Made by a program: the position numbers and the translations under genes. The notes below the pieces were generated by a model, which saw only the letters and a list, made by a program, of their open reading frames with translations, was not told the origin of the DNA and did no database searches. Shown here one piece after another: positions 411 to 51,700 of a stretch of DNA of 64,000 nt (the stretch's first letter is position 1; every line of letters begins with the position of its first letter). The stretch comes from Octopus sinensis (taxonomy: Eukaryota): the NCBI RefSeq assembly GCF_006345805.1, contig NC_042998.1:129270001-129334000 (forward strand), given 5' to 3'.

Positions 411-411
<1 letters not shown>

Positions 412-457
<46 letters not shown>

Positions 458-485
458 GAGAGAGAGAGAGAGAGAGTGAGAAGAG

Positions 486-512
<27 letters not shown>
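412..512. repeat. (TA)n/(GA)n microsatellite at the left end of the PLE
   Basis: Direct inspection. Confidence 0.95.
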
Positions 513-518
<6 letters not shown>

Positions 519-611
519 AAAATATTATTCGAGACAAAACCACTATTTTGCAACAAAACAAGGAAAGACTTAATAATACATAAAATTTTAATAAATAGTC
601 AAAAAAAACCG

Positions 612-654
612 CCACTACAATCGTTTCTTGTCTTGATCGACAATCTTCAGGTGG
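612..654 (-). ncRNA. Minimal type I hammerhead ribozyme (3' pLTR copy)
   Basis: Reverse complement reads CCAC-CUGAAGA-UUGUC(GAUCAA)GACAA-GAAAC-GAUU-GUA-GUGG. Confidence 0.85.
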
Positions 655-1099
655 ACTTCCAATCTAAAAAATCAATATTTTAAAATATAAAAATAATAAT
701 TTTAAAATAATTAAAGTATGAATGAAAAAATATAAGTATATAATCCATATATAACCTATCTATAATCCATATATAAACAATATATAAACAATATATAAAC
801 TAAAAAAACCTATCAACAATTAAATATAAAATATAAAATATAAAATATAAAATATAAAATATAAAACAAAACAAAAAAAAAAATAATAATATAATAATAA
901 ACTATATATACACCCATACGCATATACCTAATTATATATAACCATATCTAACTACATACACTAAATCACACACCTATATATATATCCCTATACATACACA
1001 TAAAAATGTCTAGGCAACTATAAATAAATAAAATAGCTAAATACTTCAACACAATACTTATTCATACTCCCACACACACACACATACAACCCACATTCA

Positions 1100-4000
1100 C
1101 GCTCTAGAAAAACGGACATCACTCAAAACTATGAACGGAGAAATGGAATAAATGGAATTAAAAATTATATACACTTTGTAAAACAAACACTACTTAAAAA
1201 TTATGAATGAAACAATGCAATAAAACAACAGACATCGCAAATATACACAAATTACTACAAATTCCTTATCAAACCTACCATGATAACCAAAATTCATAAA
1301 AACATATAATGATAAAATCTCCCTTTACTAAACTCTATAACAAACCTATATAGCAATCCCCCTAACCTAAACATTCACACACAAATACACACACGTAAAC
1401 CACACACACACGACATATACAAATACCCACACCACTTACACATACCAATACATACATATAAACCTCAACATATACTCCAAAAACCCACTCAACCCCACAC
1501 AGACAAATAAACACAAAAATTATGAATGAATGGATTCATTTATAAAACTACCATGATAATCTAAAACTCACAAAACAGAAATGATAAAACCTCCCTTACT
1601 AAACACTAAAACATACTTATATAGCAATTCATTTAACCTATACATTCACACACCAAACCACTCGTAAACCACACACCCATAACAAATACAAACTCCCACC
1701 CCACTCACACACACCCACAAGTACATATAAGCCTCAACATATACACCAAACAAAATTACTTTACCAAGGAACTTAACATATATATAAAAAGTATAACCGC
1801 TCTGGAAACGAACATCTCTAAATTAATGAATGGAGAAATGGAATAAATGGAATTAAAAATAAAATTCACGTGGCAAAACGAACACCACTCAAAAATTATG
1901 AATGAAACAATATAATAAAACAACCAACATCGAAAATAGACAAATTACTACGAATTCCCTAAAAAAAAAAAAAACCATGATAAACCAAAACTCTTAAAAA
2001 ACATATAACGATAAAATCTCCCTTTGCTAAACTCTATAACAAACCTATATAGTAATCCCCCTAACCTAAACATTCACACACAAACACACACGTAAACCAC
2101 ATACCCACGACTTATACACATACCTAAACTAACTTATAAACCTCCATATACACCAAAACCACTCCCTCCCACACAGACAAATTAAATCATAATCCCAAAA
2201 CCTAAATAACAAACCCATATACACATTCACACACAAACACCACACACACGCAAAACACACAAAACACAACATATACATATACTCCCTCACATATACGCAT
2301 ATACATACTCACTAAACTCAATATATACAACAATATTTACACACCCACACTCATACAGATAAATAAATTATACAACTAAAAAACTCGCACACAATCTCAT
2401 ATACATAACACTCCTATGAAAACAACATTAAATACATCGTAATTAACCAGAATATCAAAAATAACAATATGACATAAAGGTAAATAAAATACATACTTAC
2501 AATTCAGTGTCAAATTATGAAGTGAAATTAAATTCTTAGCCGTTAAAAAATCAAACCAAAATTACGTTACCATAGAAATAACTTATGTAAAAAAAGACTA
2601 ACAATCAACTTACAGTAACCCAAACCCATTCTCAATGCCTACCTCACTACTACACTATTCCATTCACAATTCCAAACAACGCTAGTCCACCTCCCGGTTA
2701 TTCACGTGGCAAAACGAACACCACTCAAAAATTATGAATGAAACAATGTAATAAAACAACCAACATCGAAAATAGACAATTACCACGAATTCCCTAAAAA
2801 AACCATGATAAACCAAAACTCCTAAAAACATTATAACGATAAATCTCCCTTTACTAAACTCTATAACAAACCTATATAGCAATCTCCCTAACCTAAACAT
2901 TCACACACAAATACACACTCGTAAACCACAGACCCACTACTTATACACATACCTATACTAACTTATAAACCTCAATATACACCAAAACCACTCCCTCCCA
3001 CACAGACAAATTAACACATACATCAAAACCTAAATAACACAAACCCATATACACATTCACACACAAACACACACACACGCAAAACACACACACACAACAG
3101 ATACATATACTCCATCACATATACGCATATACATACTCACTAAACTCGATATATACAACAATATTTACACACCCACACTCATACAGATAAATAAATTATA
3201 CAACTAAAAAACTCGCACACAATCTCATATACATAAACACACCTATGAAAACAACATTAAATACATCGTAATTAACCAAAATATCAAAAATAACAATATG
3301 ACATAAGGATAAATAAAATACATACTTACAATTCAGTGTCAAATTATGAAGTGAAATTAAATTCTTAGCCGTTAAAAAAATCAAAGCAAAATTACGTTAC
3401 CATAGAAATAACTTATGTAAAAAAAGAATACGCGCCATGGAAAGTAAACGTCATTTAATTATGAATGGAGAAATAGGAAAATGGAACTAAAAACTATATC
3501 CACGTGGCAAACCAACACTACTTAAAAAAAGTTTATTATGAATGGATTCTTTAAAAAACTACCATTAAAAATCATTATATACATCTATGAACTTTAGCTC
3601 ACCTTAGCATCTCTAACAAACAACTTGCAGTAACCCAAACCCATTCTCTATGCCTACTTCACTACTACACTATTCCATTCACAATTCCAAGCAACGCTAG
3701 TCCACCACCCGGTTATTCACGTGGCAAAACTAACACCACTCAAAAATTATGAATGAAACAATGTAATAAAACAACCAACATCGAAAATAGACAAATTACC
3801 ACGAATTCCCTAAAATAACCATGATAAACCAAAACTCATAAAAACATATAACGATAAAATCTCCCTTTGCTAAACTCTATAACAAACCTATATAGTAATC
3901 CCCCTAAACATTCACACACAAATACACACTCGTAAACCACAATCCACGACTTATACACATACCTATCCTAATTTTAAACCTCAATATACACCAAAACCCA

Positions 4001-4730
4001 CTCCCTCCCACACAGACAAATTAACACAAACATCCCAAAACCTAAATAACAAACCCATATACACATTCACACACAAACACACACACACACAAAAAAACAA
4101 CATACACAACAGATACATATACTCCCTCACATATACTCATATATATACTCACTAAACTCGATATATACAACAATATTTACACACCCACACTCATACAGAT
4201 AAATAAAATATACAACTAAAAACTCACACACAATCTCATATACATAAAACTCCTATGAAAACAACATTAAATACATCGTAATTAACCAGAATATCAAAAT
4301 AACAATATGACATAAGGATAAATAAAATACATACTACAAGTCAATTTCAAATAATGAAGTGAAATTAAATTCTTAGCCGTTAAAAAAACCAAACCAAAAT
4401 TACATTACCATAGAAATAACTTATGTAAAAAAAAGAGAGATATACACGCCATAGAAATTAAACGTCATTTAAATTATGAATGGAGAAATAGAATAAATGG
4501 AACTAAAACTATATCCACGTAGCAAACCAACACTACGTAAAAAAATTTTTAATCAATGGATTCTTTAAAAAACTACCATGAAAAACCATTATATACATTT
4601 ATGAGCTTAACTCACCCTATCAGCTCTAACAAACAACCTACAGCAACCCAAACCTATTCCCGATGCCTACCTCACTACCACACTAATCAATTCCCAATTC
4701 CAAGCAACGCTAGTCCACCACCCGGTTACA
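1100..4730. repeat. Complex tandem repeat (units ~0.85-1.0 kb plus partial units) in the PLE 3' region
   Basis: ttcacgtggcaaaac recurs near 1866, 2701 and 3716; gctagtccacc-cccggtta near 2681, 3696 and 4709; + strand is A/C-rich and nearly G-free. Confidence 0.9.
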
Positions 4731-4949
4731 ATTCCCAACTCCACCCATTAATTCACAATTTCAACGACATTCGCCTCCACAACGCTACATATAAGCCTCA
4801 ACATATACACCGGAGATACACTTACACATCCGTGCGGATGGGTGAGAGTATACATTAAGTGTAGTGATGGGGCTCCCATTACTATACACATTTGTACCTA
4901 TGTGGTAGTCTCCATGTGTATATTACGCACGGGTATAAATAACTGCAGG

Positions 4950-5220
4950 GGGTACAGGCGCACGTCGTTTACGTGTACCCCTCACATGTACATATGCATG
5001 CTATTTGGGCTCGATATATGCAACAATGTAATCGCGCCCGCATACATGCATATGGGCGAATTGCACAATCAAAAAACGCACACGTGTGTGTGTGCGTTCC
5101 CTAGTTGTGCAATTCACCCATCTGGGTGTGAGTGGGTGTAATCTTATCACTATGGATGTCAAGCTTAATACGTATTTATATAAGTATGTATAACGGGTTG
5201 TACGTATTAATTGTGTGCAT
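4950..5220 (+). repeat. Imperfect internal hairpin, axis ~5086
   Basis: tgggcgaattgcacaa..aacgcacac (5053-5083) pairs with gtgtgcgtt..ttgtgcaattcaccca (5090-5120); ttgggctcgatat pairs with atgtcaagcttaa further out. Confidence 0.75.
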
Positions 5221-5873
5221 GTGCTTCACGCACTTGCGTCCATATATGGATGAATATATTGGGATTACTATGTGGGTGTAAATTGGGTATGGAGGGGGGA
5301 ATTTTGTCATTGTATGGGTGTGGGTTTCATTTATGATAGTGGTTAGTTGGTGATTTTTAGTATGTTCTATATATTTGGGTTAGTTATGTATTATTCTAGT
5401 GTGTATAATTGAATACATATAATTTGTGTGAATGGGATTACGCCCATTTTTGGGGATGTATGTGTTTATTTATCCATGTGGGGCGGGAGTGGCCGTTAGG
5501 TGTATATGCCGAGGCTCACATGCAATTCCAGGTACATCGAATGAAGTGGGTACCTATATTTGTTATGGGTGTGTGTACTTTATTATAACAGACAAAACCC
5601 AATAAAATCTGTCAATTAAACATACAAATAAAAAACAAAAAACAAAGGATCTTAAACATTCACACATACATACAAAACTCAATAAAAACACCACTAAATA
5701 ACACCCATAAAATATAAATATATCCTCCAAATATATACATTAAAAATGAACTAATTAAAACAAAGAAATATAAATAAAGACTAACTATAATTAAAGCCTA
5801 GACAAATAACCAAAAATATATTATCTAAACTAATTTAAACTAAATTAAAGTAACCTAAAAGGGAACTATTTTG

Positions 5874-8378
5874 CTATTTATCATGAAACTTATTATATAG
5901 GTAAAGTAACTTATGTCTGCATTTTATTTTGCGCTCCTCGCCAGTATTAAGTAAATTATCATACTTATAAAATAAAATTTCTTTAAACTCATTAGAGCAT
6001 AAATAACAACAATTAGCTCCTATAGTATATGATTTAGTTTTACAAATTATTTCCCAAATTAAACTATAATTAATATTTAGTGATTTAAGACTCCAAATGT
6101 ACTTACTAAGTCCGGTTGAGTTGATTAAGTTTTTATTTTTAAAAGAATTCATATGTTGTGCGATTCTTAGTTTTATTTTTGAGGAAGTAGAACCTATATA
6201 AACCGCTTTTTTGTAATTATTATTCTTAAAGTTATTATCATGTAATGTAACTATACATTTATACACTACATCGTTAATATCACAATTATTATTTAATATA
6301 CAATTAGATTTATCTCTACATGTACATTTAATATAAGTCTTATCATTATTAATATTATTATCAAATAATTTCTTTTTATAAAAATTATTCAGTTTATATT
6401 ATATTAAATGAAGAAATAATGTTACCAACATTATTAGTGGTAGAGTAACCAACTCCAAAATTATTAAAAGAGAAAATGTTTCTATATTTACGATTATCTC
6501 TAATAAATAGTTCTATAACATCTAAAATCTCTTTAATAATATTCGTTTTTACTTGATTTCCATAAGGAACTATTAACCAAATTTATTCTTATTAACCTTA
6601 TTATTATTATCATTATTATAAATATATTTATAATTCTTTATTTATTAAAATTATTATCAGAATTATATCTATGTACAGCATTTAAGGAATTATTAATATT
6701 ATTAAATTTATCAATATAATTATTATAATAATTATTAAATTTATTTTTATTTTTATTATTCTTATTGTATTATTATTATATATTTATTATTATTATTATT
6801 ATTCTTATTTATATTTTATCATTTTTATTATTTTTTTAAAAAAATATCTATATTTTACCACTAAACCTAACAAAATTATAATTATTATTAGAAGTATCTC
6901 GAAAATTAACAATTAAATCTTTATCACTAATATTATAAAATTAATATTCCTGTTATAACCTGCCCCTCTAAGGGCCTCATTATAATAATTAGCATGTTTA
7001 TTAAAAATCTCTATATCATAAGAGAGTAATGAAATACGTTTACTTATATTATAATCAACGATTTTTAATAGAAAATGGGTGATTACTATTAACATTTATA
7101 TATCTAAGGTTCTCATTAAGTTTATGATATGGTTGTGTTTTACCTGTAATAAGATTAAAATTAACATCTAAATAATTAACATATAATTCTCCTTATATAT
7201 AGTAATACTTAAACCATATCTTTTAAAGAAACTATATAGTTTTTTCTTATATACTTCTAGATTCCTATTAGTACAATTCTTTGTAACTAGTAGAAGATCG
7301 TCTCTATATAAACCACCCTCTATCTTAAGATTTTCTAATTGGAGTTCAGATAAAAGAAAAATACCTACTAAATCAGTAGCCTGTGCAGAATCTGGTGCTC
7401 CCATAGGTATATCAAAACAATCTCTAGTATCATTCCTAGCCCATAATTTATTTTTATATTTAATTAGCGATTTCCTAGCCATTTTAATTACATTAACTTC
7501 TTCACGTGACATACCCGCTTTATTCATTGCGAAAATAAGCGCTTTATTAAACACAATTTCATTAATAGAAGAATAATAATTATCAATATCTATTTGAATA
7601 AATTTATAACGATTTTTATCTTTAATATTATTAAACCATTTCAATGTATTATTATTACTAAACCATAATTTTTTAAATAATTAAGGTTATTAACTTATCT
7701 ATATATTTATCTAAAATAAATTTACTTAATTTACCTAGATCCGATTTACATGGGCAAATAATCTAACTTTAGGGTCTGAATAAAAATTATCTTTATGGTC
7801 TTTAAGAGTAATTCTGGGGTGCAAAGGTACATAAGGTTCAGTTTTATTATCCAACTCATATTTTAACATTACTACTTTAGAGGCCTTATTAATATTATAA
7901 AGAATATCATCTGGAACAATTTTATATTTTTAATTATTTCTTTCCCTAATAGTTATCATATAATTTAACATCTAATTATATAAAATCCTTGTTTTATCAG
8001 ATTGTACTATAATACCATCCATATTTCTCATATCTTTAATTTTAATTGCTAAATTCCTTAAATATTCATTATTTCTATTTGGGCATTTATGGAATTCAAT
8101 ATTTTTTACCACCTTCCATATACTATCTTCAAGTAATTGTAATTCTTTATTAAATGGAGGTTCCTTTCTAGATTTAAATTTAGAGGTAAAATTATCATTC
8201 CTACTATCAATATCATTAAATAAATAAAAATTATAGTAAAAAGCTTTCCATTTAATTCTAGAAATAAAATCTTTAACATTATAACAAGTTTCAAAATAAA
8301 TTCCTTTCTAGAAGGAATAGGAATATCTTTCAAAGATGAATCCCAAAACAGCGGTTCTATCTTACCTGTAAAATCCAT
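5874..8378 (-). pseudogene. PLE polyprotein (reverse transcriptase + C-terminal GIY-YIG endonuclease), frameshifted in this assembly
   Basis: ORF pieces: SLKDIPIPS (N-term); IQIDIDNYYSSI, FDIPMGAPDSAQATDLVG and GGLYRDD (RT); CTCRDKSNC..VVYKC, VYIGST..R..QH, LSKYIW, CYLC and CRH (GIY-YIG + Zn-finger). Total ~2.5 kb. Confidence 0.88.
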
Positions 8379-8423
8379 AATTTACGAAATTGAGGTATTA
8401 CACTCAATATACAAAATTATCAA

Positions 8424-8756
8424 TATTATATAAATAATAAATATTAGGGAATAAATCCAAATTTACAGGGAAAAAATCAGATTTATGATTAAATCGATTT
8501 TATAGTAAAATATTATAAAATATTATTCGAGACAAAACCACTATTTTGCTAAACAAACAAGGAAAGACTTAATTAATACATAAAATTTTAATAAATAGTC
8601 AAAAAAACCGCCACTACAATCGTTTCTTGTCTTGATCGACAATCTTCAGGTGGACTTCCAATCTAAAAAATCAATATTTTAAAATATAAAAATAATAATT
8701 TTAAAATAATTAAAGTATGAATGAAAAAATATAAGTATATAATCCATATATAACCT
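8424..8756 (-). repeat. 5' pLTR copy (direct repeat of the element 3' end) upstream of the ORF start
   Basis: ~8511-8756 matches 511-757; 8424-8756 matches the reverse complement of ~12897-13225. Confidence 0.9.
8611..8653 (-). ncRNA. Minimal hammerhead ribozyme (5' pLTR copy, ~230 nt upstream of the ATG)
   Basis: Identical to the 612-654 motif. Confidence 0.85.
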
Positions 8757-11700
8757 CGTGCGTAATATACACATGGAGACTACCACATAGGTACAAATGT
8801 GTATAGTAATGGGAGCCCCATCACTACACTTAATGTATACTCTCACCCATCCGCACGGATGTGTAAGTGTATCTCCGGTGTATATGTTGAGGCTTATATG
8901 TAGCGTTGTGGAGGCGAATGTCGTTGAAATTGTGAATTAATGGGTGGAGTTGGGAATTGTAACCGGGTGGTGGACTAGCGTTGCTTGGAATTGGGAATTG
9001 ATTAGTGTGGTAGTGAGGTAGGCATCGGGAATAGGTTTGGGTTGCTGTAGGTTGTTTGTTAGAGCTGATAGGGTGAGTTAAGCTCATAAATGTATATAAT
9101 GGTTTTTCATGGTAGTTTTTTAAAGAATCCATTGATTAAAAATTTTTTTACGTAGTGTTGGTTTGCTACGTGGATATAGTTTTAGTTCCATTTATTCTAT
9201 TTCTCCATTCATAATTTAAATGACGTTTAATTTCTATGGCGTGTATTCTCTCTTTTTTTTACATAAGTTATTTCTATGGTAATGTAATTTTGGTTTGGTT
9301 TTTTTAACGGCTAAGAATTTAATTTCACTTCATTATTTGAAATTGACTTGTAGTATGTATTTTATTTATCCTTATGTCATATTGTTATTTTGATATTCTG
9401 GTTAATTACGATGTATTTAATGTTGTTTTCATAGGAGTTTTATGTATATGAGATTGTGTGTGAGTTTTTAGTTGTATATTTTATTTATCTGTATGAGTGT
9501 GGGTGTGTAAATATTGTTGTATATTCGAGTTTAGTGAGTATATATATGAGTATATGTGAGGGAGTATATGTATCTGTTGTGTATGGGTGTTTTTTGTGTG
9601 TGTTGTGGTTTGTGTGTGAATGTGTATATGGGTTTGTTATTTAGGTTTTGGGATGTTTGTGTTAATTTGTCTGTGTGGGAGGGAGTGGGTTTTGGTGTAT
9701 ATTGAGGTTATAAATTAGGATAGGTATGTGATAAGTCGTGGATTGTGGTTACGAGTGTGTATTTGTGTGTGAATGTTTAGGGGGATTATATATAGGTTTG
9801 TTATAGAGTTTAGCAAAGGGAGATTTATCGTTATATGTTTTTATGAGTTTTGGTTTATCATGGTTATTTTAGGGAATTCGTGGTAATTTGTCTATTTTCG
9901 ATGTTGGTTGTTTTATTACATTGTTTCATTCATAATTTTTGAGTGGTGTGTTAGTTTTGCCACGTGAATAACGGGTGGTGGACTAGCGTTGCTTGGAATT
10001 GTGAATGGAATAGTGTAGTAGTGAAGTAGGCATAGAGAATGGGTTTGGGTTACTGCAAGTTGTTTGTTAGAGATGCTAAGGTGAGCTAAAGTTCATAGAT
10101 GTATATAATGATTTTTAATGGTAGTTTTTTAAAGAATCCATTCATAATAAAAGTTTTTTTAAGTAGTGTTGGTTGCCACGTGGATATAGTTTTTAGTTCC
10201 ATTTTCCTATTTCTCCATTCATAATTTAAATGACGTTTACTTTCCATGGCGCGTATTTTTTTTACATAAGTTATTTCTATGGTAACGTAATTTTGCTTTG
10301 ATTTTTTAACGGCTAAGAATTTAATTTCACTTCATAATTTGACACTGAATTGTAAGTATGTATTTTATTTATCCTTATGTCATATTGTTATTTTTGATAT
10401 TTTGGTTATTACGATGTATTTAATGTTGTTTTCATAGGTGTGTTTATGTATATGAGATTGTGTGCGAGTTTTTAGTTGTATAATTTATTTATCTGTATGA
10501 GTGTGGGTGTGTAAAATTGTTGTATATATCGAGTTTAGTGAGTATGTATATGCGTATATGTGATGGAGTATATGTATCTGTGTGTGTGTGTGTTTTGCGT
10601 GTGTGTGTGTTTGTGTGTGAATGTGTATATGGGTTTGTTATTTAGGTTTTGGGATGTATGTGTTAATTTGTCTGTGTGGGAGGGAGTGGGTTTTGGTGTA
10701 TATTGAGGTTTATAAGTTAGTATAGGTATGTGTATAAGTAGTGGGTCTGTGGTTTACGAGTGTGTATTTGTGTGTGAATGTTTAGGTTAGGGAGATTGCT
10801 ATATAGGTTTGTTATAGAGTTTAGTAAAGGGAGATTTATCGTTATATGTTTTTAGGAGTTTGGTTTATCATGGTTTTTTTAGGGAATTCGTGGTAATTTG
10901 TATTTTCGATGTTGGTTGTTTTATTACATTGTTTCATCATTCATAATTTTTGAGTGGTGTTCGTTTTGCCACGTGAATAACCGGGAGGTGGACTAGCGTT
11001 GTTTGGAATTGTGAATGGAATAGTGTAGTAGTGAGGTAGGCATTGAGAATGGGTTTGGGTTACTGTAAGTTGATTGTTAGTCTTTTTTACATAAGTTATT
11101 TCTATGGTAACGTAATTTTGGTTTGATTTTTTAACGGCTAAGAATTTAATTTCACTTCATAATTTGACACTGAATTGTAAGTATGTATTTTATTTACCTT
11201 TATGTCATATTGTTATTTTTGATATTCTGGTTAATTACGATGTATTTAATGTTGTTTTCATAGGAGTGTTTATGTATAGAGATTGTGTGCGAGTTTTTAG
11301 TTGTATAATTTATTTATCTGTATGAGTGGGGGTGTGTAAATATTGTTGTATATATTGAGTTTAGTGAGTATGTATATGCGTATATGTGAGGGAGTATATG
11401 TATATGTTGTGTTTGTGTGTTTTGCGTGTGTGTGTGTTTGTGTGTGAATGTGTATATGGGTTTGTTATTAGGTTTTGGGATGTATGAGTTAATTTGTCTG
11501 TGTGGGAGGGAGTGGTTTTTGGTGTATATGGAGGTTTATAAGTTAGTTTAGGTATGTGTATAAGTCGTGGGTATGTGGTTTGTGTGTGTTTGTGGGTGAA
11601 TGTTTAGGTTAGGGGGATTACTATATAGGTTTGTTATAGAGTTTAGCAAAGGGAGATTTATCGTTATATGTTTTTTAAGAGTTTTGGTTTATCATGGTTT

Positions 11701-13225
11701 TTTTTTTTTTTAGGGAATTCGTAGTAATTTGTCTATTTTCGATGTTGGTTGTTTTATTATATTGTTTCATTCATAATTTTTGAGTGGTGTTCGTTTTGCC
11801 ACGTGATTTTATTTTTAATTCCATTTATTCCATTTCTCCATTCATTAATTTAGAGATGTTCGTTTCCAGAGCGGTTATACTTTTTATATATATGTTAAGT
11901 TCCTTGGTAAAGTATTTTGTTTGGTGTATATGTGAGGCTTATATGTACTTGTGGGTGTGTGTGAGTGGGGTGGGAGTTTGTATTTGTTATGGGTGTGTGG
12001 TTTACGAGTGGTTTGGTGTGTGAATGTATAGGTTAAATGAATTGCTATATAAGTATGTTTTAGTGTTTAGTAAAGGGAGGTTTTATCATTTCTGTTTTGT
12101 GAGTTTTAGATTATCATGGTAGTTTTATAAATGAATCCATTCATAATTTTTGTGTTTATTTGTCTGTGTGGGGTTGTGGGGTTTTTGGAGTATATGTTGA
12201 GGTTTATATGTATGTATTGGTATGTGTAAGTGGTGTGGGTATTTGTATATGTCGTGGGTGTGTGGTTTACGTGTGTGTATTTGTGTGTGAATGTTTAGGT
12301 TAGGGGGATTGATATAGTTTTGTTATAGAGTTTAGTAAAGGGAGATTTTATCATTATATGTTTTTATGAATTTTGGTTATCATGGTAGGTTTGATAAGGA
12401 ATTTGTAGTAATTTGTGTATATTTGCGATGTCTGTTGTTTTATTGCATTGTTTCATTCATAATTTTTAAGTAGTGTTTGTTTTACAAAGTGTATATAATT
12501 TTTAATTCCATTTATTCCATTTCTCCGTTCATAGTTTTGAGTGATGTCCGTTTTTCTAGAGCGTGAATGTGGGTTGTATGTGTGTGTGTGTGGGAGTATG
12601 AATAAGTATTGTGTTGAAGTATTTAGCTATTTTATTTATTTATAGTTGCCTAGACATTTTTATGTGTATGTATAGGGATATATATATAGGTGTGTGATTT
12701 AGTGTATGTAGTTAGATATGGTTATATATAATTAGGTATATGCGTATGGGTGTATATATAGTTTATTATTATATTATTATTTTTTTTTTGTTTTGTTTTA
12801 TATTTTATATTTTATATTTTATATTTTATATTTAATTGTTGATAGGTTTTTTTAGTTTATATATTGTTTATATATTGTTTATATATGGATTATAGATAGG
12901 TTTATATGGATTATATACTTATATTTTTTCATTCATACTTTAATTATTTTAAAATTATTATTTTTTATTTTTAAAATATTGATTTTTTAGATTGGAAGTC
13001 CACCTGAAGATTGTCGATCAAGACAAGAAACGATTGTAGTGGCGGTTTTTTTTTGACTATTTATTAAAATTTTATGTATTAATTAAGTCTTTCCTTGTTT
13101 GTTTTGCAAAATAGTGGTTTTGTCTCGAATAATATTATAATATTTTACTATAAAATCGATTTAATCATAAATCTGATTTTTCCCTGTAAATTTGGATTTA
13201 TTCCCTAATATTATTATTATTATAA
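8757..13225 (+). repeat. Inverted arm of the PLE (reverse complement of 4931->511 plus ~85 nt extension)
   Basis: cgtgcgtaatatacacatgg at 8757 = reverse complement of 4912-4931; the same 100-aa ORF appears at 4556-4858(+) and 8830-9132(-). Confidence 0.95.
13000..13042 (+). ncRNA. Minimal hammerhead ribozyme (inverted arm), predicted cleavage after GUA at 13038
   Basis: CCAC CTGAAGA TTGTC GATCAA GACAA GAAAC GATT GTA GTGG. Confidence 0.85.
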
Positions 13226-13233
13226 TATATATA

Positions 13234-13277
<44 letters not shown>

Positions 13278-15311: not shown

Positions 15312-15704
15312 CCCCGCTAAATTACCAATTACTTATCAATTGAATGAAATTTATTCACTTTAAAATGTTATTTCTAGAATTATTCATTAATGCGTATAGA
15401 AATACCTCTTCAATAAAGCGACTCGAGAATACAAAACAAAACTATTCAAACTTATGTTTATGTATTTGTTTATTTGCTGATAGTTTTAAAAAAATGTTTT
15501 TACTGTGATTAAGAGAAATTTATCTTCTTGTTACAAATTAATTTCGTTAAATATAATCAAATATTTTCTGGGACCAATGGGTAATCTTTTTAATAAAAAT
15601 ATATACAAAATAAAACGTGTTCTTGAAAATGCAGTGTTAAATTTATATAGAACTAATTTTCGTATACACACACACGCGCACGAACACACACACACACACA
15701 CATA

Positions 15705-15735
<31 letters not shown>

Positions 15736-16159
15736 CACACACACACGGTGGCTTGTCGACTACAGTGAAACCAATGCTCTACTGGTACATATTTCACCGA
15801 AGACATGAAACGCAGGAATTTCGGTAACCGCTTTGTCAGGCGATAACAAATCTTCTAGCTCATTGCTTTTAATCGTCAGTAACAATACTACTATAAATAA
15901 AAATCTACACAAAATATACAAGTGTGGCTACGTCGTAAGAGGCTTGCTTTCCAACCACATGGCTCCGGGTTCAGTCACTATAATTCTTATTACCCTAATA
16001 TTATTTATTATGTTTAAATATTTTTTGATAAATTTGTTCGAAATTTTACCGGCATCTTCTCTGTCGCCGGAAATAAACTGCATCTGCGCAGTGGATTTGA
16101 AAAAGTTGGAATATACAGGCAACGAGTTTACCTTCGGATCTCGTTGTGAGTATATTTAA

Positions 16160-17450
16160 AATCTAAAGGCTACCTACTGATGAAGACTGATTCGTTGGCT
16201 CCAGGTTGTATCGTCCCTGAATTGGTAGAGGGGAAAAATTCTGAAGCTTGGATTTTTGTTATTAGCGCAAATGTCGATGTGTTCACTGAATGCTATTTTT
16301 CTGTTTTGGGGAATTTTGATCTGGGATCTGTGTGGAGCCATTCTTTTACGTTGACTGTTTTTTGTTTGGCCTATGCATTGCTCTTGACACCCAGAGCAGG
16401 TTAGTGCGTATATAAGGTTCTCCGAAGCACATGTGAAGTTGCTTTTCACTGTGAAACGTTGTCCCTGTTTGAAGGTGAACTCTAGTCCCTCAATTAAATT
16501 GACGCATATCCCGTAGTTGGGCCTTTCGCATTTTTTTAGTGACGGCTTCTGTATTGTTGTTGAACATATTCGGTCTTTCTCTGTTTGAAGTTAGAGTACT
16601 CCCGATATTGTATCACTGGTGGCTTACAAAGTTTGGGTTAGGTCCTGTATTCTTTTTTTGGTAGGGGTGATGGTTCAGATTTTTAGACAGGTGGGAATCA
16701 GTGTTTGAGTGTTGTTTCGATTTTCTTATTTTCAGGAAAGCGTTGTTGTAAGCGTGCTCTGTTTGAAAGATGGCTTCATAGTTTGAGAACTAAGTGGCAC
16801 TTTTCTCCCAGCGTTGGAGAGATTTCAGTTCTTATCACATTCCTCTTTCCATTGTTTGGAGATCTTCTCTTCATCGGGCCTTGGGTCATGTTGCGAATTT
16901 CTTGGTTGATCTCTTCATCGGTGGATTTTATTTTTTATCTTCATTCGTTTGGGCTCTCAATATTAGAAGTTCTCTTTCCGTTTTCATTTTTTCCAGTGTC
17001 ATTCTTTCCCTAAGGCGTCTTTGTGTTTCAACTTCATCTGTAATGGCTTTGATCTGGAAATTACGTGGGAGAATTAACGGTGTCTGATTGAGCCATTTTT
17101 CGTATATATCGCTTTGTTGTTGTTTTGGATCATCTTCCAAAAGGCAAACTTTCTATCTCTGAGTGATCTGTTCCATTGCGGTACTATGTGGTGTTTCATT
17201 TGGTATGTTGTTAGAGTATTGATCCCATATGCTGTCTCGTTTGGAGGTCCTTGATTCGCGTTGTTAGAGAAAAAATGTTCTACTTGTTTCGCATAAGTTT
17301 CCATGGTTCTCGACGATTTCGGAGGTTGTATTTTTCGTATCGGTTTCCGCATTGTTCTCTCGATTGGACTGATGTGTCAAGTCGAATTTATTCAAAAATG
17401 TTAACAGTTTTGTGTTGATTTTCTTGAGTTCTTTCAGTATTTCTTCATGT
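16160..17450 (-). mobile_element. Internally deleted Neptune-like PLE (N-terminus + Zn-finger/GIY-YIG, no RT seen), copy 1
   Basis: KSNFTCASENLIYALTCSGCQEQCIGQTKNS..RM..HRSQI..FSEHIDIC = GIY-YIG with Cys motifs, preceded by PNYGICVNLIEG; no RT motifs between 16580 and 17450. Confidence 0.7.
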
Positions 17451-18144
17451 ATATATATATATATATATATATTACTTGTATGTAATACAAACACACAACG
17501 AATAATACCTATATATGTATGAATGGTCCTGTGTGTATTTGGACTTGCATATAATTGTAAATGAAAATGATCAAACACTGGAGCGTCATGGGTTGGTTGA
17601 ATATATTAATATATATATACTCCTATGATCTTTTCGATCAATTCCCACTGGTGCTGGGAATCGTACAAAACTCCTAGTGCGGTGGACAGAACTTGTACTG
17701 GGAAAAATATACATTAGATGAAACCATAAATTCGCGAATGGTAAATATTCTTCAAAACAGATGATTAACTTCAAGAAAAATAAATATAATATATATTTAT
17801 ATAGGTGGTTAAATACATAATTGTTAAGATTAAGCAAGCAAAGTATCTACAGACACACACATACACAAATACACACCGATTGCCTTTTCCTACGCGTTAA
17901 CGTATTTCACTCAAAACTAGATTTTTTTTTTTCTAAATGGAAATTTCGTTTCAAATACATCTGAACGCATATGCACGAATATAGACAAAGTCAGTAACGC
18001 ATGAAGAGCTTCTTATGCTAAATCTTACATTTTGCTGGTAAATCTGAATCTATAATAACTAAAAGACTTACCTTAAATGAAATACAAGAAACCTCATTAA
18101 GATCAAACGAATTTCTTATCGTACAGTCGTTTGCAGACACCTAA

Positions 18145-18182
<38 letters not shown>

Positions 18183-18634
18183 CACACACACACACACACA
18201 CACACCACACACACACACACACACGGTGGCTTGTCGACTACAGTGAAACCAATGCTCTACTGGTACATATTTCACCGAAGACATGAAACGCAGGAATTTC
18301 GGTAACCGCTTTGTCAGGCGATAACAAATCTTCTAGCTCATTGCTTTTAATCGTCAGTAACAATACTACTATAAATAAAAATCTACACAAAATATACAAG
18401 TGTGGCTACGTCGTAAGAGGCTTGCTTTCCACCACATGGCTCCGGTTCAGTCACTATAATTCTTATTACCCTAATATTATTTATTATGTTTAAATATTTT
18501 TTGATAAATTTGTTCGAAATTTTACCGGCATCTTCTCTGTCGCCGGAAATAAACTGCATCTGCGCAGTGGATTTGAAAAGTTGGAATATACAGGCAACGA
18601 GTTTACCTTCGGATCTCGTTGTGAGTATATTTAA

Positions 18635-19918
18635 AATCTAAAGGCTACCTACTGATGAAGACTGATTCGTTGGCTCCAGTTGTATCGTCCCTGAATGGTA
18701 GAGGGGAAAAATTCTGAAGCTTGGATTTTTGTTATTAGCGCAAATGTCGATGTGTTCACTGAATGCTATTTTTCTGTTTTGGGGAATTTTGATCTGGGAT
18801 CTGTGTGGAGCCATTCTTTTACGTTGACTGTTTTTTGTTTGGCCTATGCATTGCTCTTGACACCCAGAGCAGGTTAGTGCGTATATAAGGTTCTCCGAAG
18901 CACATGTGAAGTTGCTTTTCACTGTGAAACGTTGTCCCTGTTTGAAGGTGAACTCTAGTCCCTCAATTAAATTGACGCATATCCCGTAGTTGGGCCTTTC
19001 GCATTTTTTTAGTGACGGCTTCTGTATTGTTGTTGAACATATTCGGTCTTTCTCTGTTTGAAGTTAGAGTACTCCGATATTGTATCACTGGTGGCTTACA
19101 AAGTTTGGGTTAGGTCCTGTATTCTTTTTTTGGTAGGGGTGATGGTTCAGATTTTTAGACAGGTGGGAATCAGTGTTTGAGTGTTGTTTCGATTTTCTTA
19201 TTTTCAGGAAAGCGTTGTTGTAAGCGTGCTCTGTTTGAAAGATGGCTTCATAGTTTGAGAACTAAGTGGCACTTTTCTCCCAGCGTTGGAGAGATTTCAG
19301 TTCTTTATCACATTCCTCTTTCCATTGTTTGGAGATCTTCTCTTCATCGGGCCTTGGGTCATGTTGCGAATTTCTTGGTTGATCTCTTCATCGGTGGATT
19401 TTATTTTTTATCTTCATTCGTTTGGCTCTCAATATTAGAAGTTCTCTTTCCGTTTTCATTTTTTCCAGTGTCATTCTTTCCCTAAGGCGTCTTTGTGTTT
19501 CAACTTCATCTGTAATGGCTTTGATCTGGAAATTACGTGGGAGAATTAACGGTGTCTGATTGAGCCATTTTTCGTATATATCGCTTTGTTGTTGTTTTGG
19601 ATCATCTTCCAAAAGGCAAACTTTCTATCTCTGAGTGATCTGTTCCATTGCGGTACTATGTGGTGTTTCATTTGGTATGTTGTTAGAGTATTGATCCCAT
19701 ATGCTGTCTCGTTTGGAGGTCCTTGATTCGCGTTGTTAGAGAAAAAATGTTCTATTTGTTTCGCATAAGTTTCCATGGTTCTCGACGATTTCGGAGGTTG
19801 TATTTTTCGTATCGGTTTCCGCATTGTTCTCTCGATTGGACTGATGTGTCAAGTCGAATTTATTCAAAAATGTTAACAGTTTTGTGTTGATTTTCTTGAG
19901 TTCTTTCAGTATTTCTTC

Positions 19919-19920
<2 letters not shown>
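18635..19920 (-). mobile_element. Internally deleted Neptune-like PLE, copy 2
   Basis: Duplicate of 16160-17450. Confidence 0.7.
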
Positions 19921-19963
<43 letters not shown>

Positions 19964-20657
19964 ATATATATTATATATATATATTACTTGTATGTAATAC
20001 AAACACACAACGAATAATACCTATATATGTATGAATGGTCCTGTGTGTATTTGGACTTGCATATAATTGTAAATGAAAATGATCAAACACTGGAGCGTCA
20101 TGGGTTGGTTGAATATATTAATATATATATACTCCTATGATCTTTTCGATCAATTCCCACTGGTGCTGGGAATCGTACAAAACTCCTAGTGCGGTGGACA
20201 GAACTTGTACTGGGAAAAATATACATAAGATGAAACCATAAATTCGCGAATGGTAAATATTCTTCAAAACAGATGATTAACTTCAAGAAAAATAAATATA
20301 ATATATATTTATATAGGTGGTTAAATACATAATTGTTAAGATTAAGCAAGCAAAGTATCTACAGACACACACATACACAAATACACACCGATTGCCTTTT
20401 CCTACGCGTTAACGTATTTCACTCAAAACTAGATTTTTTTTTTTCTAAATGGAAATTTCGTTTCAAATACATCTGAACGCATATGCACGAATATAGACAA
20501 AGTCAGTAACGCATGAAGAGCTTTCTTATGCTAAATCTTACATTTTGCTGGTAAATCTGAATCTATAATAACTAAAAGACTTACCTTAAATGAAATACAA
20601 GAAACCTCATTAAGATCAAACGAATTTCTTATCGTACAGTCGTTTGCAGACACCTAA

Positions 20658-20700
<43 letters not shown>

Positions 20701-21283
20701 CACACATACCCACTCAGACACAGAAACTGTAACCGACGACCTGAATCGCGGAACATATGTTAGCATGTCCTATATTTTCGTTATTTGTTATACTTACGCC
20801 CAGAAATATGTACACTTTCTGACTTCCCTCATTTCCGTTGGGTAGACCAGAGCAAAGTGGAATGATGTACTCCGTGAAAGATAGAAGGTCATTGCTCCGG
20901 CCAAGAATCTGACCTACGAACTTATGATCGTGTACTCTATTCTCTAACCATTATGCCTCGCAGGAGAGTAGTAAGGTGAAATTCGACTCGAGAGACAAAT
21001 ATTGAGCGTCAGATTCAATAAAATAAAGAAAACATATCCTCTACAACATATACTAAGCACATCCTCCTCATTCGATCGACATTAAGCAACGTGGGCATAT
21101 ATATAAAATTTTAGTTTTAATTTTGGGGCGCTGCGGAGTGTTTATGATTCCTAATTTTTGCTAAGCTGGTATTTCTTAGTTCCCTGATTATATATATTTT
21201 ATATATATATATCTATTAATTCTGTCTATACAGTTTTATGTTTGCGGCCACTAATATTATTATCTCTTGTGAGTAATAATATT

Positions 21284-25620: not shown

Positions 25621-26730
25621 ATGATGAAGTTTACCTTCTTTCTGTTGCCACTGAATGTTCTGCAGTTCTCTTAATATATATCAGAGATATATACCACAGA
25701 AGGACGAAATGGAAAAAGCAGGACGAGAGGGAACACATGAGACAGAGAGTCACTGATGAGTTCACAATGTGTATAACGAAAGAACTTCGACAGACATATA
25801 AACTAAAAATGATATGAATAAATACTAAAAGTGAAGATCGAATAGTGCGTGTGTTTAATAGGCAAAAAGAATGCCAATCCCCAATATCTGTTTGAACACG
25901 CGCTCTCATATCAGGAATCTTGCGAAACAAATACATAAGCCTTTGCATACAGAGACACAGAGACACACACAGACAGACACGCATAACCAGACACACATAC
26001 ATACATGACATGTATCTATATCTTATTCCCGTAAAATTTATTTACATGTGTATGTATGCATTTATGTTTGTATTGCCCGTAATGTCTGTGCAGACTTCCG
26101 TTATTTCTGACATAATTTCACCCCAAACCGATCATTATAGGTTTGTTCGATCAAGGTTGATCTTTCAAAAGGAATTATCTTCAAAGGCTTGGATAAGAGA
26201 ACGTACTTTGTGATATACAGACGTACGGATCATCGCTGTTGGAATACTTTCATCATATCTTTGATCAATCATTATTGATCTTATTGCTAAATAATAACAA
26301 CTATAAATAATAAATATTAAAAAAAAAACATTTTATGTTTACTATTCAGTGCAGGAAGACACCCGAACTCAGACAGACAGACAAACAGACAGACACATAC
26401 ACACATTCACAGAGGTACGAACATGTACATATATGGATGACGTAGCTGTATAGGAGCCTTATATGGTTTACAGACGAATTTTTTTCCTTTTTTCTTTCTT
26501 ACTCTTTTATATTTTGTTTTGGAATAATTGTGTTTCGTTAACATTTGAAGAATTCCTCTGTCCCTATTTTCTTTTCGTTAAAATCATTGAGTGACTGTCT
26601 TTAAACGTTAACGGACTAAGGAGTGCTCTCATACCACACTGAGGAAATATGAAAAATTTTTAATAAAAAAACATCAGTTCGAGCAGAGTTATGCGTTTGT
26701 TATGTATATGTGTCTCTGTGAGAGAGCGAA

Positions 26731-33089: not shown

Positions 33090-33945
33090 AAAAAAAGAAA
33101 ATTAAAGCTAGGTCTACTCATAAGCTCTCTTATATACAAAAACAGCGTTGCTCCCAAACTATAGGGTTTAAAAACGTGATAGCTATCATCAGTATCAGGA
33201 TATCTAATGTCTCCTCTCCCAAAGAAATATTTGATTAGGCAACCGCCTACTATAACAATACCTTAGCTAACAGAGGTTTCAAAGATATATTTCACACTTT
33301 CGATTAAAAATATGAAGCCTAAAAATAGAGTTATGGAGAGACTTGGGAAAATAATATGGTTCGAGCCCCACCTCTACTTAAATGCTAAAACTAACGTAGG
33401 TAGGAAATTCCAGGCTCTTTTAGATAAGCATTTTCCAGTAAACCATAATTACAGGAGGATTTTTAATAGGCACTCGATAAAAATATCATACAATTACTGC
33501 CCCAGTATGAAGACCACCATCACTGGCAAGCCTCACCAAGAGCCCAGTCCCAGTTATAACCGTCGATGGCCCGAAGGTTGATCACTTGACACGGTATGTA
33601 TGATAAAGTCTGTCATCTATGAGGTAGAACTCAATGTTTCAAGATAATGTAATTGAAAGGAAAAATTACATCGGTTTATAAGGAGACAATTTTAAAAGAG
33701 GTTAGGCAAACCACCAGTCTTTACGGCACATCGACAAAAGTAAAGCCACTAAGTTGGTTAACCACATATGGAAAGAATCATGAAGAAATTTATGTCATAT
33801 GTAAATGGAGTTAAGAGATGCAGCTTATGCATAACAGAGATTACACAACATTTTTAGAGCCAAGAATTCAATCACACTACTTAATTCCTTATCCGAAGTT
33901 TTCGGCAAGCACAAGCATATGACCAAATTTCTTTTGTTGAAGTAG
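33090..33945 (+). mobile_element. Degenerate PLE 3' fragment (same broad clade as 511-13225)
   Basis: SIRISNVSSPKEIF, IIWFEP..TNVGRKF..LLDKHFP..IFNRHSIKISY, CMIKSVIYE, KNYIGL, TKLVNHIWK. Confidence 0.8.
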
Positions 33946-34977: not shown

Positions 34978-37058
34978 AGTAGTTCTATTTTTATAACGTA
35001 CTTTCACTTCACTACCGAGCGCAGCTCTGTGTGCCTTGGGTATGTGCTGTCGTTTGGTTTGATGCTCTTATGGTTACTGTATTGAAAGTGTTTTGCGTTG
35101 GATGTGTGCAGTGCCAAGTAGTGCAATTTTCTGTATGTTATATATATTTGTAAGTCCTGGTGTTTTTATTATGTATTTGTCTGAATATTTTTTATCATGC
35201 CTAATGCGCCTACTATGATAGGAATTGTTTCTGTTTTTAGATTCCACATTCCAGTTACCTCTATTTCCAGGTCTTTGTATTTTGAAAGTTTCTCCATTTC
35301 TTTTAGAGACACGTTGTCATCCGCTGATACATCAATTAGAAAACATTTTTTTTTCTTCATGATCTCTGACAACTATATCTGGTCTGTTGGCCTTAATTTC
35401 TTTATCTGTGTGTATTGGCATATCCCAGAGAATGATTGCTTTCTCGTTTTCTATGACCATTTCTGGTGTGTGCCTATACCATCTTGTTTCTGTTGTTATT
35501 CCATAGTGTTGGCATAGCTTCCAGTGTATGTAGGTCCCAACTCTATCCTGTCTCTGAATATATTCCTTCTTAGCCAGGTCTGGGCAGCCAGAGATAATAT
35601 GATTTATTGTTTCTTGTCCATCTCCACATATTCTGCAGTTACTTGTTATATTTCTTTTCATTATATGTTTTTGGTAATTACTGGTGGGGAGGTTTTGGTC
35701 TTGTGCTGCAATTAAGAATCTCTCCGTCTCTGCTTTGAGTCCTGAGCTTCTCAACCATTGCTGTTTAGCCCAGTATTTGCCACGGAGAGGCTTTTCCTGC
35801 CATCGTTTTATCATGGTCCGTTGCTGTTCTAGTTTTAGTTTGGATTTCATTTATTTTATAGCTTTTGTTTCGTCTTCTTCTTCTTCTTCTTTTCTTCTTC
35901 TTCTTCTTCTTCTTCTTCTTCTTCTTCTCTTCTTCTTCTTCTTCTTCTTCTTCTTTTCTTCTTCTTCTTCTTCTTCTTCTTCTTCTTCTTTTCTTCTTCT
36001 TCTTCTTCTTCTTCTTCTTCTCTTCTTCTTCTTCTTCTCTTCTTCTTCTTTTTCTTCTTCTTCTTCTTCTTCTTCTTCTTCTTCTTCTTCTTCATATTTG
36101 TTAGGTAGTATGATTTTTTGTTTGTATTTGTCATTTTCCTTAAATACTGAGAACAGCTTTTTTGTTTTGCTCGTGTTTTGCCGCTATTTGTATCAGTTTT
36201 CCTTGCTTCTGAAGTAAATATTTTTGCAGTCCTATGGTGGTTATTTTATAAGTTTTCCAGCTGTATAAGGCCTCTACCACCTATACGTTGTATATATAAC
36301 CTTTCTATGTCAGATTTTGGGTGGTGCATCCTAGATCCTGTCATTATTTTTCTTGTTTTTCTGTCTATTTTGGTTAATTCATTTAGTGTCCAGTTAAGGA
36401 TATTGTAGCTGTAAATTATAACTGGGACGGCTAAAGTGTCAATACCTATTATCTTGTTTTTAGCATTGAACTTTTTTTTATTATTGATATAACTCGTCTA
36501 TAGTATTCTTTGTTTATTTTCTCTTTCATTTGTGTGCGTTGCATCTTATCTAGTTCATGGATTCCTAAATATTTGTAAGTCTGGCTTTGGTCTAGTTCTC
36601 TTATTTTATTGCCTTTATCTAGCGTGATGTTGCTACTCTTAACAAGTATTCCTCTTTTCAGGGTTGCTTTGACACATTTTTCTAATCCAAATTTCATATC
36701 TATTTGTTTGGTAAACCCATCTACTGTCTGTAGTAGTGTTGCCAGTTGTTTGTCATTTGTAGCGTATAGTTTTAGGTCATCCATATGTAAAAGGTGACTG
36801 ATTTTTTGCCATAGCATTTGTATCCGTATCTAGTTCTATTTAGCATATCAGATAGAGGAGCCACTGCCAAGCAGAAAAGGAGTGGAGAAAGCGTGTCTCC
36901 TTGGAATATTCCTCTTCTAATGGGGATGGCTTTGGTTTTCACGAGTACCCCTTTTGTTTGGAGCTGTAGCACTGTCTGTCATTTATTCATAGACTGCCTT
37001 ATGTATCTTATAATTATTGGTGCTACCTTGTTCATTGCTACTGTTTCGAGCATCCACG

Positions 37059-37060
<2 letters not shown>
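34978..37060 (-). mobile_element. R4/Dong-type LINE (RT + CCHC + restriction-like endonuclease), 5'-truncated
   Basis: RGIFQGDTLSPLLF, HLLHMDDLKLY, CRIC..ETINHIISGC, ANRPDIV, IDVS..KLSKYKDL; flanked by (TTA)n on both sides. Confidence 0.9.
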
Positions 37061-37128
<68 letters not shown>

Positions 37129-37159
37129 TTATTATTATTATTATTATTTTTATCATTAT

Positions 37160-37775
37160 TATTCTATGTTTGACTTTTGCTTTATATTTGTACAAGTTGG
37201 CTCCAAGTCTCATCCAGAGACCTCAAGAGACAACAGGTTGGAAGTTCATGTTGTTGTTATGCCTAGTGTGCCATATATTTGGTTTTGTATTTAGTGTTGT
37301 ACTAGTGAATGCCTTAAAAATTATGTTTGTTTTAAAACTTGAGATTACATAGAAAGTATTTTGCGTAGGATATGAGCAGTTCACATGAGCACTATCTTTT
37401 GAATTTCTACCATCTTTGGGTTTCCTGCTATCTGAGTTAGGTAGCAATCAGCCCCTTTTGCTATCATTCCTAGGGCACCCATGACAACAGGTATTGTTTT
37501 AGTCTTCAGGTTCCACATTTTGCTGATTTCTATTTCAAGATCTTTATATTTGATCAGTTTTTGGTAGGTCTTGACAGATACGTTTATATCGATTGGGACA
37601 GTCATATCAATGAGGAGGCATGTTCTTTGTCTGAAGTCTTTCAATATGATGTCTGGCCTATTTGCATCTATCTTTCTGTCAGTTTGAATGGTGAAGTTCC
37701 AGAGGAGTGAGATGCGGTCATTTTCAAGCACTGGAGGTGGTTTGTGTTCCCACCAGTTTTTTGATGGGGCAAATC

Positions 37776-37776
<1 letters not shown>
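37160..37776 (-). mobile_element. R4/Dong-type LINE 3' fragment (RLE domain + 3' UTR)
   Basis: DANRPDIILKD..LIDMTVP..KLIKYKDL; (TTA)n on both sides. Confidence 0.88.
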
Positions 37777-37841
<65 letters not shown>

Positions 37842-37842
<1 letters not shown>

Positions 37843-51660: not shown

Positions 51661-51700
51661 AATAACTTAAAACCGTTGGAATATTTTCGAACCAACAAAA

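What the first reader, a model, noticed from the sequence alone, without database searches (positions are those of the whole stretch)
511..13225. Giant fold-back Penelope-like element: 4.4-kb inverted arms around a possibly intact RT/GIY-YIG ORF
Seen: 511-4931 and 8757-13140 are near-identical inverted copies enclosing a 3.8-kb spacer that contains the whole ORF and a direct pLTR copy. Known: PLEs form partial-tandem and inverted pLTR structures, usually of a few hundred bp. Inference: multi-kb arms are unusually long, and read-through RNA would form ~4.4 kb of dsRNA. Arm differences are mostly 1-nt indels and the ORF breaks lie in very AT-rich sequence, so long-read error is plausible and the element may be young and coding-competent.
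Basis: partly seen in the sequence, partly recalled or inferred. Interest (0 to 1): 0.75.

Follow-up and report, generated by a model that had tools for sequence, protein, structure and literature searches.

The report
Double-ended Penelope retrotransposon insertion
The 4.4-kb mirror-image arms belong to one copy of a young, abundant Penelope-type jumping gene whose relatives often carry such arms, and they were likely made by copying one RNA twice from two start sites, which bears on how these elements replicate, although this copy likely cannot express its own gene.

Summary
The arms (511-4931 / 8757-13140, 98.0% identical) and the blunt 8756|8757 junction are as described. An inverted 5'-truncated copy at the 5' end is published PLE architecture. 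Long arms are routine here: 22 of 38 ORF-bearing loci have one, five others of 3.8 kb or more. The arms are long because the 8.0-kb unit holds three tandem modules, each with a likely start site, a 23-nt exon and a splice donor. In 46 of 47 two-armed insertions one end has an ~85-nt tail and the other does not, and both arms share one subfamily variant. About half the family's ends (1,269 vs 1,151 exact matches) lack the intron precisely. This favours two primings on one sense RNA over antisense self-priming. ORF breaks are probably mostly sequencing error, but this copy lacks the upstream start module. Both arms' putative promoters point outward, so 4.4-kb dsRNA needs outside read-through. 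No read confirmed the junction. The scan noted spliced, two-start copies before on other DNA.

The parts
511..8756 (-). Long arm of the insertion: one full 7,999-nt unit plus 245 nt of upstream pLTR; ends at the tailless terminus E1 (~513) in (TA)n
8757..13225 (+). Inverted 5'-truncated arm (~4.47 kb) starting at the position equal to 4931 and ending at the tailed terminus E2 in (TA)n
8756..8757 (.). Head-to-head junction, blunt (0-nt overlap, no insert)
5874..8378 (-). Single ORF (~835 codons): RT, thumb, ~115-aa Asn-rich insert, CxCx5C linker, C-terminal GIY-YIG endonuclease; 19 private non-triplet indels as assembled
8407..8756 (-). Upstream pLTR remnant: last 94 nt of the intron, acceptor (exon 2 starts 8662), hammerhead, E1, tail and 5' UTR; no start site or exon 1
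8611..8653 (-). Type I hammerhead motif (CUGAAGA core, GAAA); cleavage untested
   Evidence: format as in PMC8557442 File S2
612..654 (-). Hammerhead motif, left pLTR
13000..13042 (+). Hammerhead motif, right pLTR
4338..4360 (-). Module 1: inferred start site and 23-nt exon 1, donor GTAGTA (intron ~3.67 kb to the acceptor at 664); mirror at 9327-9349 (+)
3330..3352 (-). Module 2: inferred start site and exon 1, donor GTAAGT (intron ~2.66 kb); mirror at 10329-10351 (+)
2501..2523 (-). Module 3: inferred start site and exon 1, donor GTAAGT (intron ~1.83 kb); mirror at 11154-11176 (+)
663..669 (-). Splice acceptor TTTTAG before the hammerhead (exon 2 starts 663); mirror exon 2 starts 12991 (+)
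13141..13225 (+). Tail (~85 nt between E1 and E2), present on this arm only
411..510 (.). Left target: (TA)n/(GA)n microsatellite
13226..13270 (.). Right target: (TA)n/(TG)n microsatellite

Best explanation
This is one insertion of a young Hydra-clade Penelope-like retrotransposon whose two head-to-head arms were likely made at insertion, by the element's protein likely cutting a (TA)n target and priming reverse transcription from both broken ends on one sense RNA at two start sites about 85 nt apart. Shown: clade motifs, the two discrete termini (E1 without tail, E2 with tail), (TA)n flanks, one E1 plus one E2 end in 46 of 47 two-armed insertions, arms from one template variant, and intron-less short copies. 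Inferred: each cDNA runs toward the RNA's 5' end, stops at its own point, and the two inner ends are joined by end-joining. Priming near the cap of spliced mRNA would give ~170/250-nt palindromic stubs. Priming on a long unspliced read-through RNA would give multi-kb arms like these. The arms are long because the 5.2 kb behind the ORF is mostly tandemly amplified start-site/exon-1/intron modules. This copy likely lacks its own promoter for the ORF.
For: Hydra motifs DKT, KWK (RWK variant), CxCx5C, CxxC-E...N-CxH, no CCHH, (TA)n target and hammerhead. 22 of 38 ORF loci carry a head-to-head inverted copy with a different breakpoint each; 20 of 23 junctions are blunt, have 1-6 nt overlap, or have 1-8 nt inserts. 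One E1 plus one E2 end and the same subfamily base in 46 of 47 two-armed insertions; one prospective prediction was met (C2:171.7). Either end type can sit on the longer arm (6 E1 vs 10 E2 in ORF loci; 8 vs 7 with 6 ties in stubs). The window's arms differ by 0 transitions, against 14-34 to nine other arm sequences, and share 9 private substitutions. Precise GT-AG removal in 1,269 exact matches vs 1,151 unspliced. One stub pair uses a donor 4 nt downstream. No spliced arm of 42 passes the Inr-like start. In all 20 pairs with a spliced arm the partner is spliced or cut within exon 1. PAc cuts and extends both target strands from two internal start sites in vitro (PMC11167929).
Against: No read or contig was shown to span 8756|8757 (inconclusive). 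One compound locus (L104) has an inner E2/E2 pair. 7 of 13 sampled single motif hits showed no second arm in the fetched stretch. The second prospective test (C10:73.5) was unresolved. No ORF-bearing locus has a spliced upstream pLTR (0 of 64), so long and short copies need different RNA pools, which is not explained. One RNA versus two RNAs from the same source is not resolved by sequence. Start site and splicing are inferred from DNA copies, not from RNA. ORF loci were chosen for having the ORF, and the C1 pairs for having two intact motifs.
Confidence: 0.72

Rival explanations
1. A symmetric intermediate (both cDNAs from E2, or two RNA molecules from one source) forms first, and the endonuclease then trims one end at E1 during resolution, as Craig et al. 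suggest for the origin of the tail.
For: It also gives one tailed and one tailless end. E1 is AT-rich like the target. [quoted passage not shown] L104 has an E2/E2 pair.
Against: PAc's two RT start sites bracket its tail in vitro, and genomic ends fall on them. Matching splice state within pairs is simplest with one RNA molecule. Single-armed copies end at either E1 or E2.
Confidence: 0.12
2. One cDNA folds back and self-primes, possibly on an antisense template (model of PMC3846280), so that the second arm is copied from the first.
For: It explains identical arms and near-palindromic junctions; some junctions here are nearly symmetric (C2:103.0, C7:37.5) and many stub centres are palindromic.
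Against: Intron-less copies need a spliced sense template. In 6 of 16 ORF loci, this one included, the tail is on the shorter arm, which a copy of the longer tailless arm cannot supply. Most junctions have 0-3 nt overlap.
Confidence: 0.08
3. The right arm is a long-read or assembly fold-back artefact.
For: The arms are identical apart from error-like differences, the assembly is indel-rich, and no contig was shown to bridge the junction.
Against: The duplication stops at the element's own termini with unrelated flanks, has a 3.8-kb spacer, and carries a tail that the left arm lacks. 21 other ORF loci and 26 motif pairs on C1 have the same geometry, all head-to-head.
Confidence: 0.04
4. Two independent insertions, or a later inverted duplication, with the arms kept alike by gene conversion.
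For: The family targets (TA)n and pLTR-like AT-rich DNA; long inverted repeats can convert (general knowledge).
Against: The junction is not in (TA)n. The E1/E2 rule and shared variants hold in short stubs as well. No tail-to-tail close pair was seen among the 100 listed motif hits.
Confidence: 0.04

Closest known systems
Hydra clade of C-terminal EN+ PLEs, incl. Hydra-1_Obim and Penelope-13_HM (Craig et al. 2021, PMC8557442; seen: passages, section 11, supplement part 2 and passages of parts 7, 52-59)
   Same: Protein motifs, (TA)n targets, type I hammerhead, pLTR, tail at one end, and an inverted 5'-truncated copy at the 5' end (966 nt in Penelope-13_HM).
   Different: Unit of 8.0 kb here (2.6-5.4 kb from stop to acceptor among copies without large deletions), against 2.1-2.7 kb for listed complete consensus sequences, which may omit this region. 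Hammerhead sequence differs from Hydra-1_Obim. Tail ~85 nt rather than 30-40. Tandem start-site/intron modules and a ~115-aa Asn-rich insert.
PAc, Poseidon element of Anolis (Frangieh et al. 2024, PMC11167929; seen: parts 1-2 of 4 and passages)
   Same: AT-rich target, both strands cut and extended, and two internal RT start sites that bracket the tail.
   Different: Other clade; its starts lie inside the ORF, here upstream of the ATG. In the text seen, the paper does not link the two starts to the two arms of inverted insertions.
Adineta vaga Penelope families (Arkhipova et al. 2013, PMC3846280; seen: passages and Discussion)
   Same: Two direct pLTRs plus one inverted pLTR, optional tail on one end, Asn-rich ORF inserts, Inr-like TCACT in the pLTR, intron retention.
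   Different: Arms of ~0.2 kb. The authors favour antisense self-priming and leave a sense template open; the spliced stubs here point to a sense template.
Drosophila virilis Penelope and Chlamys-3_cRei 5'-UTR introns (as summarised in PMC8557442 and PMC4209133 passages)
   Same: Start site and a 5'-UTR intron in the pLTR; the intron ends just before the hammerhead.
   Different: Introns of 75 and 398/751 nt there; 1.0-3.9 kb here, with up to three alternative first exons.

Membership tests
EN+ Penelope-like elements | Single ORF with RT and GIY-YIG endonuclease | tested here: met
   Overlapping open frames of two natural copies (519 and 607 aa) cover the protein; YRDD, VVY..YIG, R, H, E and N are present, also in the window's frames. 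Pfam gave no RT hit.
EN+ Penelope-like elements | pLTR from partial tandem, inverted 5'-truncated copy, tail at one end | tested here: met
EN+ Penelope-like elements | Hammerhead motif in pLTR | tested here: met
   Motif in all three pLTRs; monomer folding not better than shuffles; cleavage untested.
Hydra clade | RWK motif, no GxKF/Y, DKG changed to DKT | tested here: met
   KWK (homologues RWK/RWR) and DKT in alignment A1; definition.
Hydra clade | CxCx5C linker; no CCHH; CxxC and CxH around the conserved E and N | tested here: met
   CTCRDKSNC; one Cys only between VVY and YIG; CYLC..E..N..CRH.
Hydra clade | Insertion into (TA)n | tested here: met
   Nearly all listed termini run into (TA)n.
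Hydra clade | Generally short (<3 kb) | tested here: not met
   7,999-nt unit. The paper gives this as a tendency ('generally'), not a diagnostic.
Hydra clade | Groups with named Hydra RTs in a phylogeny | not testable with these tools
   Named references could not be entered. Homologue P0022 (35%, E 1.8e-77) looks near-identical by eye to Hydra-2_Amil printed in the supplement.
Neptune / Nematis / Penelope-Poseidon | CCHH motif in EN (and CX2-5CxxC linker in Neptune, Nematis) | tested here: not met
Naiad / Chlamys | N-terminal endonuclease | tested here: not met
   EN is C-terminal.

The most novel reading that the evidence does not exclude
PLEs integrate by a coupled two-ended reaction: both ends of a double-strand cut prime on the same sense RNA at two fixed sites, so each insertion is born as a head-to-head pair with exactly one tail. 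Spliced mRNA yields only promoterless stubs, while only unspliced read-through RNA yields ORF-bearing copies, which explains PLE 'intron retention' without an antisense template. In this family the promoter-intron module has multiplied in tandem to give an 8-kb Hydra element with three alternative first exons.
Probability: 0.55. Interest if true: 0.72.

Novelty: new variant of a known kind. Interest (0 to 1): 0.5.

Why it matters
The fold-back itself is ordinary for PLEs. The family, though, is a large natural record (2,701 exact motif copies) of a replication cycle still unresolved in print. PMC3846280 left sense versus antisense template open, and PMC11167929 left the steps after priming unvalidated. 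The one-tail rule, shared arm variants and precisely spliced stubs make that question testable by counting and by a simple in vitro mixing assay. For genome work: multi-kb inverted repeats of this shape in (TA)n need not be assembly errors, and ORF-bearing copies need an upstream start module to be sources.

Tried and rejected
Rfam found no hammerhead family; only microsatellite-driven weak hits. Pfam found no RT or GIY-YIG hit for the family or three homologues, and PDB had no sequence match. Monomer folding of the hammerhead and tail was no better than shuffles. Short-read contigs of 4 runs laid on 8722-9250 showed no listed piece bridging the junction; the list was cut, so this is inconclusive. 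No RNA holder is on record among the listed runs. The dimer prediction for residues 1-480 gave no answer. No intact single ORF among L001-L020. No ORF-derived protein similarity in the 5.2-kb downstream region. The apparent termini at ref 334/350 were alignment run-on into (TA)n; there are two termini, not three. The splice-state column failed (pattern error) and was not used; splice counts come. Three apparent nonsense codons in the window map by codon number to the Asn-rich, indel-rich stretch near 6850 and are treated as alignment noise, not proven either way. Neptune (my first guess from recalled motifs) was rejected by the motif test.
Full report
Observation. The arms are in the sequence at the stated places. 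511-4931 and the reverse complement of 8757-13140 align at 98.0%, with 12 substitutions and 56 indel events. The join is blunt at 8756|8757. The right arm continues ~85 nt into a tail that the left arm lacks, and both outer ends run into (TA)n. Read in the element's sense, the locus is two copies joined head to head. One runs leftward from 8756 to 511 (245 nt of pLTR plus a 7,999-nt unit). The other runs rightward from 8757 and is the last 4.4 kb of the same unit plus the tail.

Identity. Other copies give open frames of 519 aa from the start and 607 aa to the stop. They align with 53 homologues found among 7,998 scored candidates (12 of them aligned). The protein has KWK/RWK, DKT, YRDD, a CxCx5C linker, a C-terminal GIY-YIG domain without CCHH, and CxxC and CxH around the conserved E and N. 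These are the published diagnostics of the Hydra clade (PMC8557442 section 11). Named homologues are from Argonauta and Octopus, so the host is likely an octopod (inference). A different octopus Hydra family, Hydra-1_Obim, is already listed, and Penelope-13_HM carries a 966-nt inverted copy (supplement). The same paper calls an inverted 5'-truncated copy frequent in PLEs. Asn-rich ORF inserts like the ~115-aa one here are known from Adineta (PMC3846280).

Are long arms unusual? Not in this family. The ORF search returned 41 places from 40 scored of 1,995 candidates. I fetched 20 kb around 37 of them; the other three lie inside those stretches. With the window that makes 38 loci, of which 22 have a head-to-head inverted copy. 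Thirteen measured arms are 1.6 kb or longer, and five besides this one are 3.8-8.8 kb. Breakpoints differ at each locus. Of 23 junctions, 7 are blunt, 9 overlap by 1-6 nt, 4 have 1-8 nt inserts and 3 were poorly resolved. The hammerhead motif has 2,701 exact matches in the genome. Among the first 100 listed I counted 26 close opposite-strand pairs, all head-to-head.

Real or artefact? The duplication ends at element termini, with unrelated flanks, a 3.8-kb spacer and a one-sided tail, which a read fold-back would not give (inference). Short-read contigs neither confirmed nor excluded the junction. The arms differ by 0 transitions, against 14-34 to nine other arm sequences, and share 9 private substitutions. 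All 12 substitutions are transversions, while 134 of 312 private substitutions in 20 other ORF copies are transitions (chance about 0.001). So the arms come from one template and their differences are mostly error.

ORF state. The window has 19 private non-triplet indels, the most of 21 near-full-length copies (others 1-12). 15 of its 16 private deletions are an A in a run of two or more. The arms' indel rate (56 per 8.8 kb) predicts about 16 in 2.5 kb, so error can explain the breaks, but no read proves it. No copy among L001-L020 is intact as assembled.

Why the arms are long. The 5.2 kb behind the stop holds three similar modules of 0.8-1.0 kb. Short palindromic insertions showed what they are. 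In 21 stubs examined, the sequence just upstream of the hammerhead jumps to a 23-nt piece from those modules. In long copies that piece is followed mostly by GTAAGT or GTAGTA, and the joint falls after TTTTAG, so a GT-AG intron of 1.0-3.9 kb is missing precisely. One stub pair uses the donor 4 nt downstream and one (L115) joins 9 nt upstream of the acceptor. Exact matches number 1,269 intron-less and 1,151 with the acceptor intact. None of 42 stub arms passes the Inr-like start and 8 reach it exactly. One unspliced arm also begins within its first 5 nt (L130). Exon variant and subfamily base stay linked across the removed intron: 7 of 7 A-type long copies and both A-type stubs share one variant. 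I infer that each module is a start site, first exon and donor. The window's upstream pLTR holds only the last 94 nt of intron, so its ORF lacks this start. The modules in both arms point outward and would give RNA of one sense, so a 4.4-kb hairpin needs a transcript from outside. An ORF listing showed only repeat fragments nearby, which is not a gene search.

Mechanism. There are two termini, E1 and E2, ~85 nt apart. In 46 of 47 two-armed insertions with both ends resolved, one end is E1 and the other E2, and both carry the same subfamily base: 16 of 16 ORF loci, 25 of 26 C1 pairs, 5 of 5 further loci. Six ORF loci were unresolved, L104 has an inner E2/E2 pair, and 7 of 13 single hits showed no second arm. 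One of two predictions noted beforehand was met and the other unresolved. In all 20 pairs with a spliced arm, the partner is spliced or cut within exon 1; ORF loci have 0 of 64 spliced contexts. The tail sits on the shorter arm in 6 of 16 ORF loci, this one included, which a simple fold-back of the longer arm cannot give. PAc cuts and extends both target strands from two internal starts. The simplest reading is that both ends of one cut prime on one sense RNA, at E1 and E2, and the two products are end-joined. Target cutting, priming, joining and the single RNA molecule are all inferred.

Novelty. The architecture is known; the family and its 8-kb form with amplified modules are a variant. Five literature searches and the passages read showed the tail 'at one end' but no count of this rule and no report of spliced stubs. 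Subscription papers are not searched, and most of the supplement of PMC8557442 was not read. For PMC4209133, PMC13282606 and bioRxiv 10.64898/2026.07.22.740005 I saw passages only. Earlier notes of this scan reached the two-start and spliced-copy reading on other DNA; I had the end rule before and the splice. They are not independent evidence. Interest 0.5: the fold-back is ordinary, while the family-level pattern makes an open mechanistic question testable.

Noticed in passing
window 15663-18204 and 18142-20716: Direct tandem duplication of 2.5 kb (97.4%; 9 transitions, 5 transversions, so really diverged). Each copy holds a GIY-YIG-like frame with Cys motifs (16174-16590, 18638-19063, minus strand), likely another PLE family; no Pfam hit.
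   Followed up: partly
window 33125-33839 (+): Older remnant of another Hydra-like PLE (tblastn E 1e-7 to 5e-18 to homologues).
   Followed up: no
window 35332-39613 (-): Fragments of non-LTR retrotransposons (RVT_1, zf-RVT).
   Followed up: no
window 25753-25781 (+): A further hammerhead-like core unrelated to this family.
   Followed up: no
window 44379-44958, 51014-52086, 55053-55439: Dispersed ~350-nt repeat in both orientations, 75-91% identical.
   Followed up: no
window 5087-5575: Degenerate inverted copy of the module inside the element's own downstream region (60-72%), suggesting the unit grew by its own inverted duplications.
   Followed up: partly
L099:560-1200: About 600 nt of unrelated sequence captured between two spliced stub arms.
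   Followed up: no
L104:438-1185: Compound insertion with three ends, an inner tailed/tailed pair and a piece of another repeat; the one exception to the end rule.
   Followed up: partly
G000 family copies: At least three coexisting subfamilies (marker base G, T, A), mostly with three, one and one start modules and about 5.2, 3.5 and 2.9 kb from stop to acceptor.
   Followed up: partly
P0006, P0050, P0055: Relatives are named 'GATA zinc finger domain-containing protein 14-like' in public sources, a likely misannotation driven by the Asn-rich stretch.
   Followed up: no
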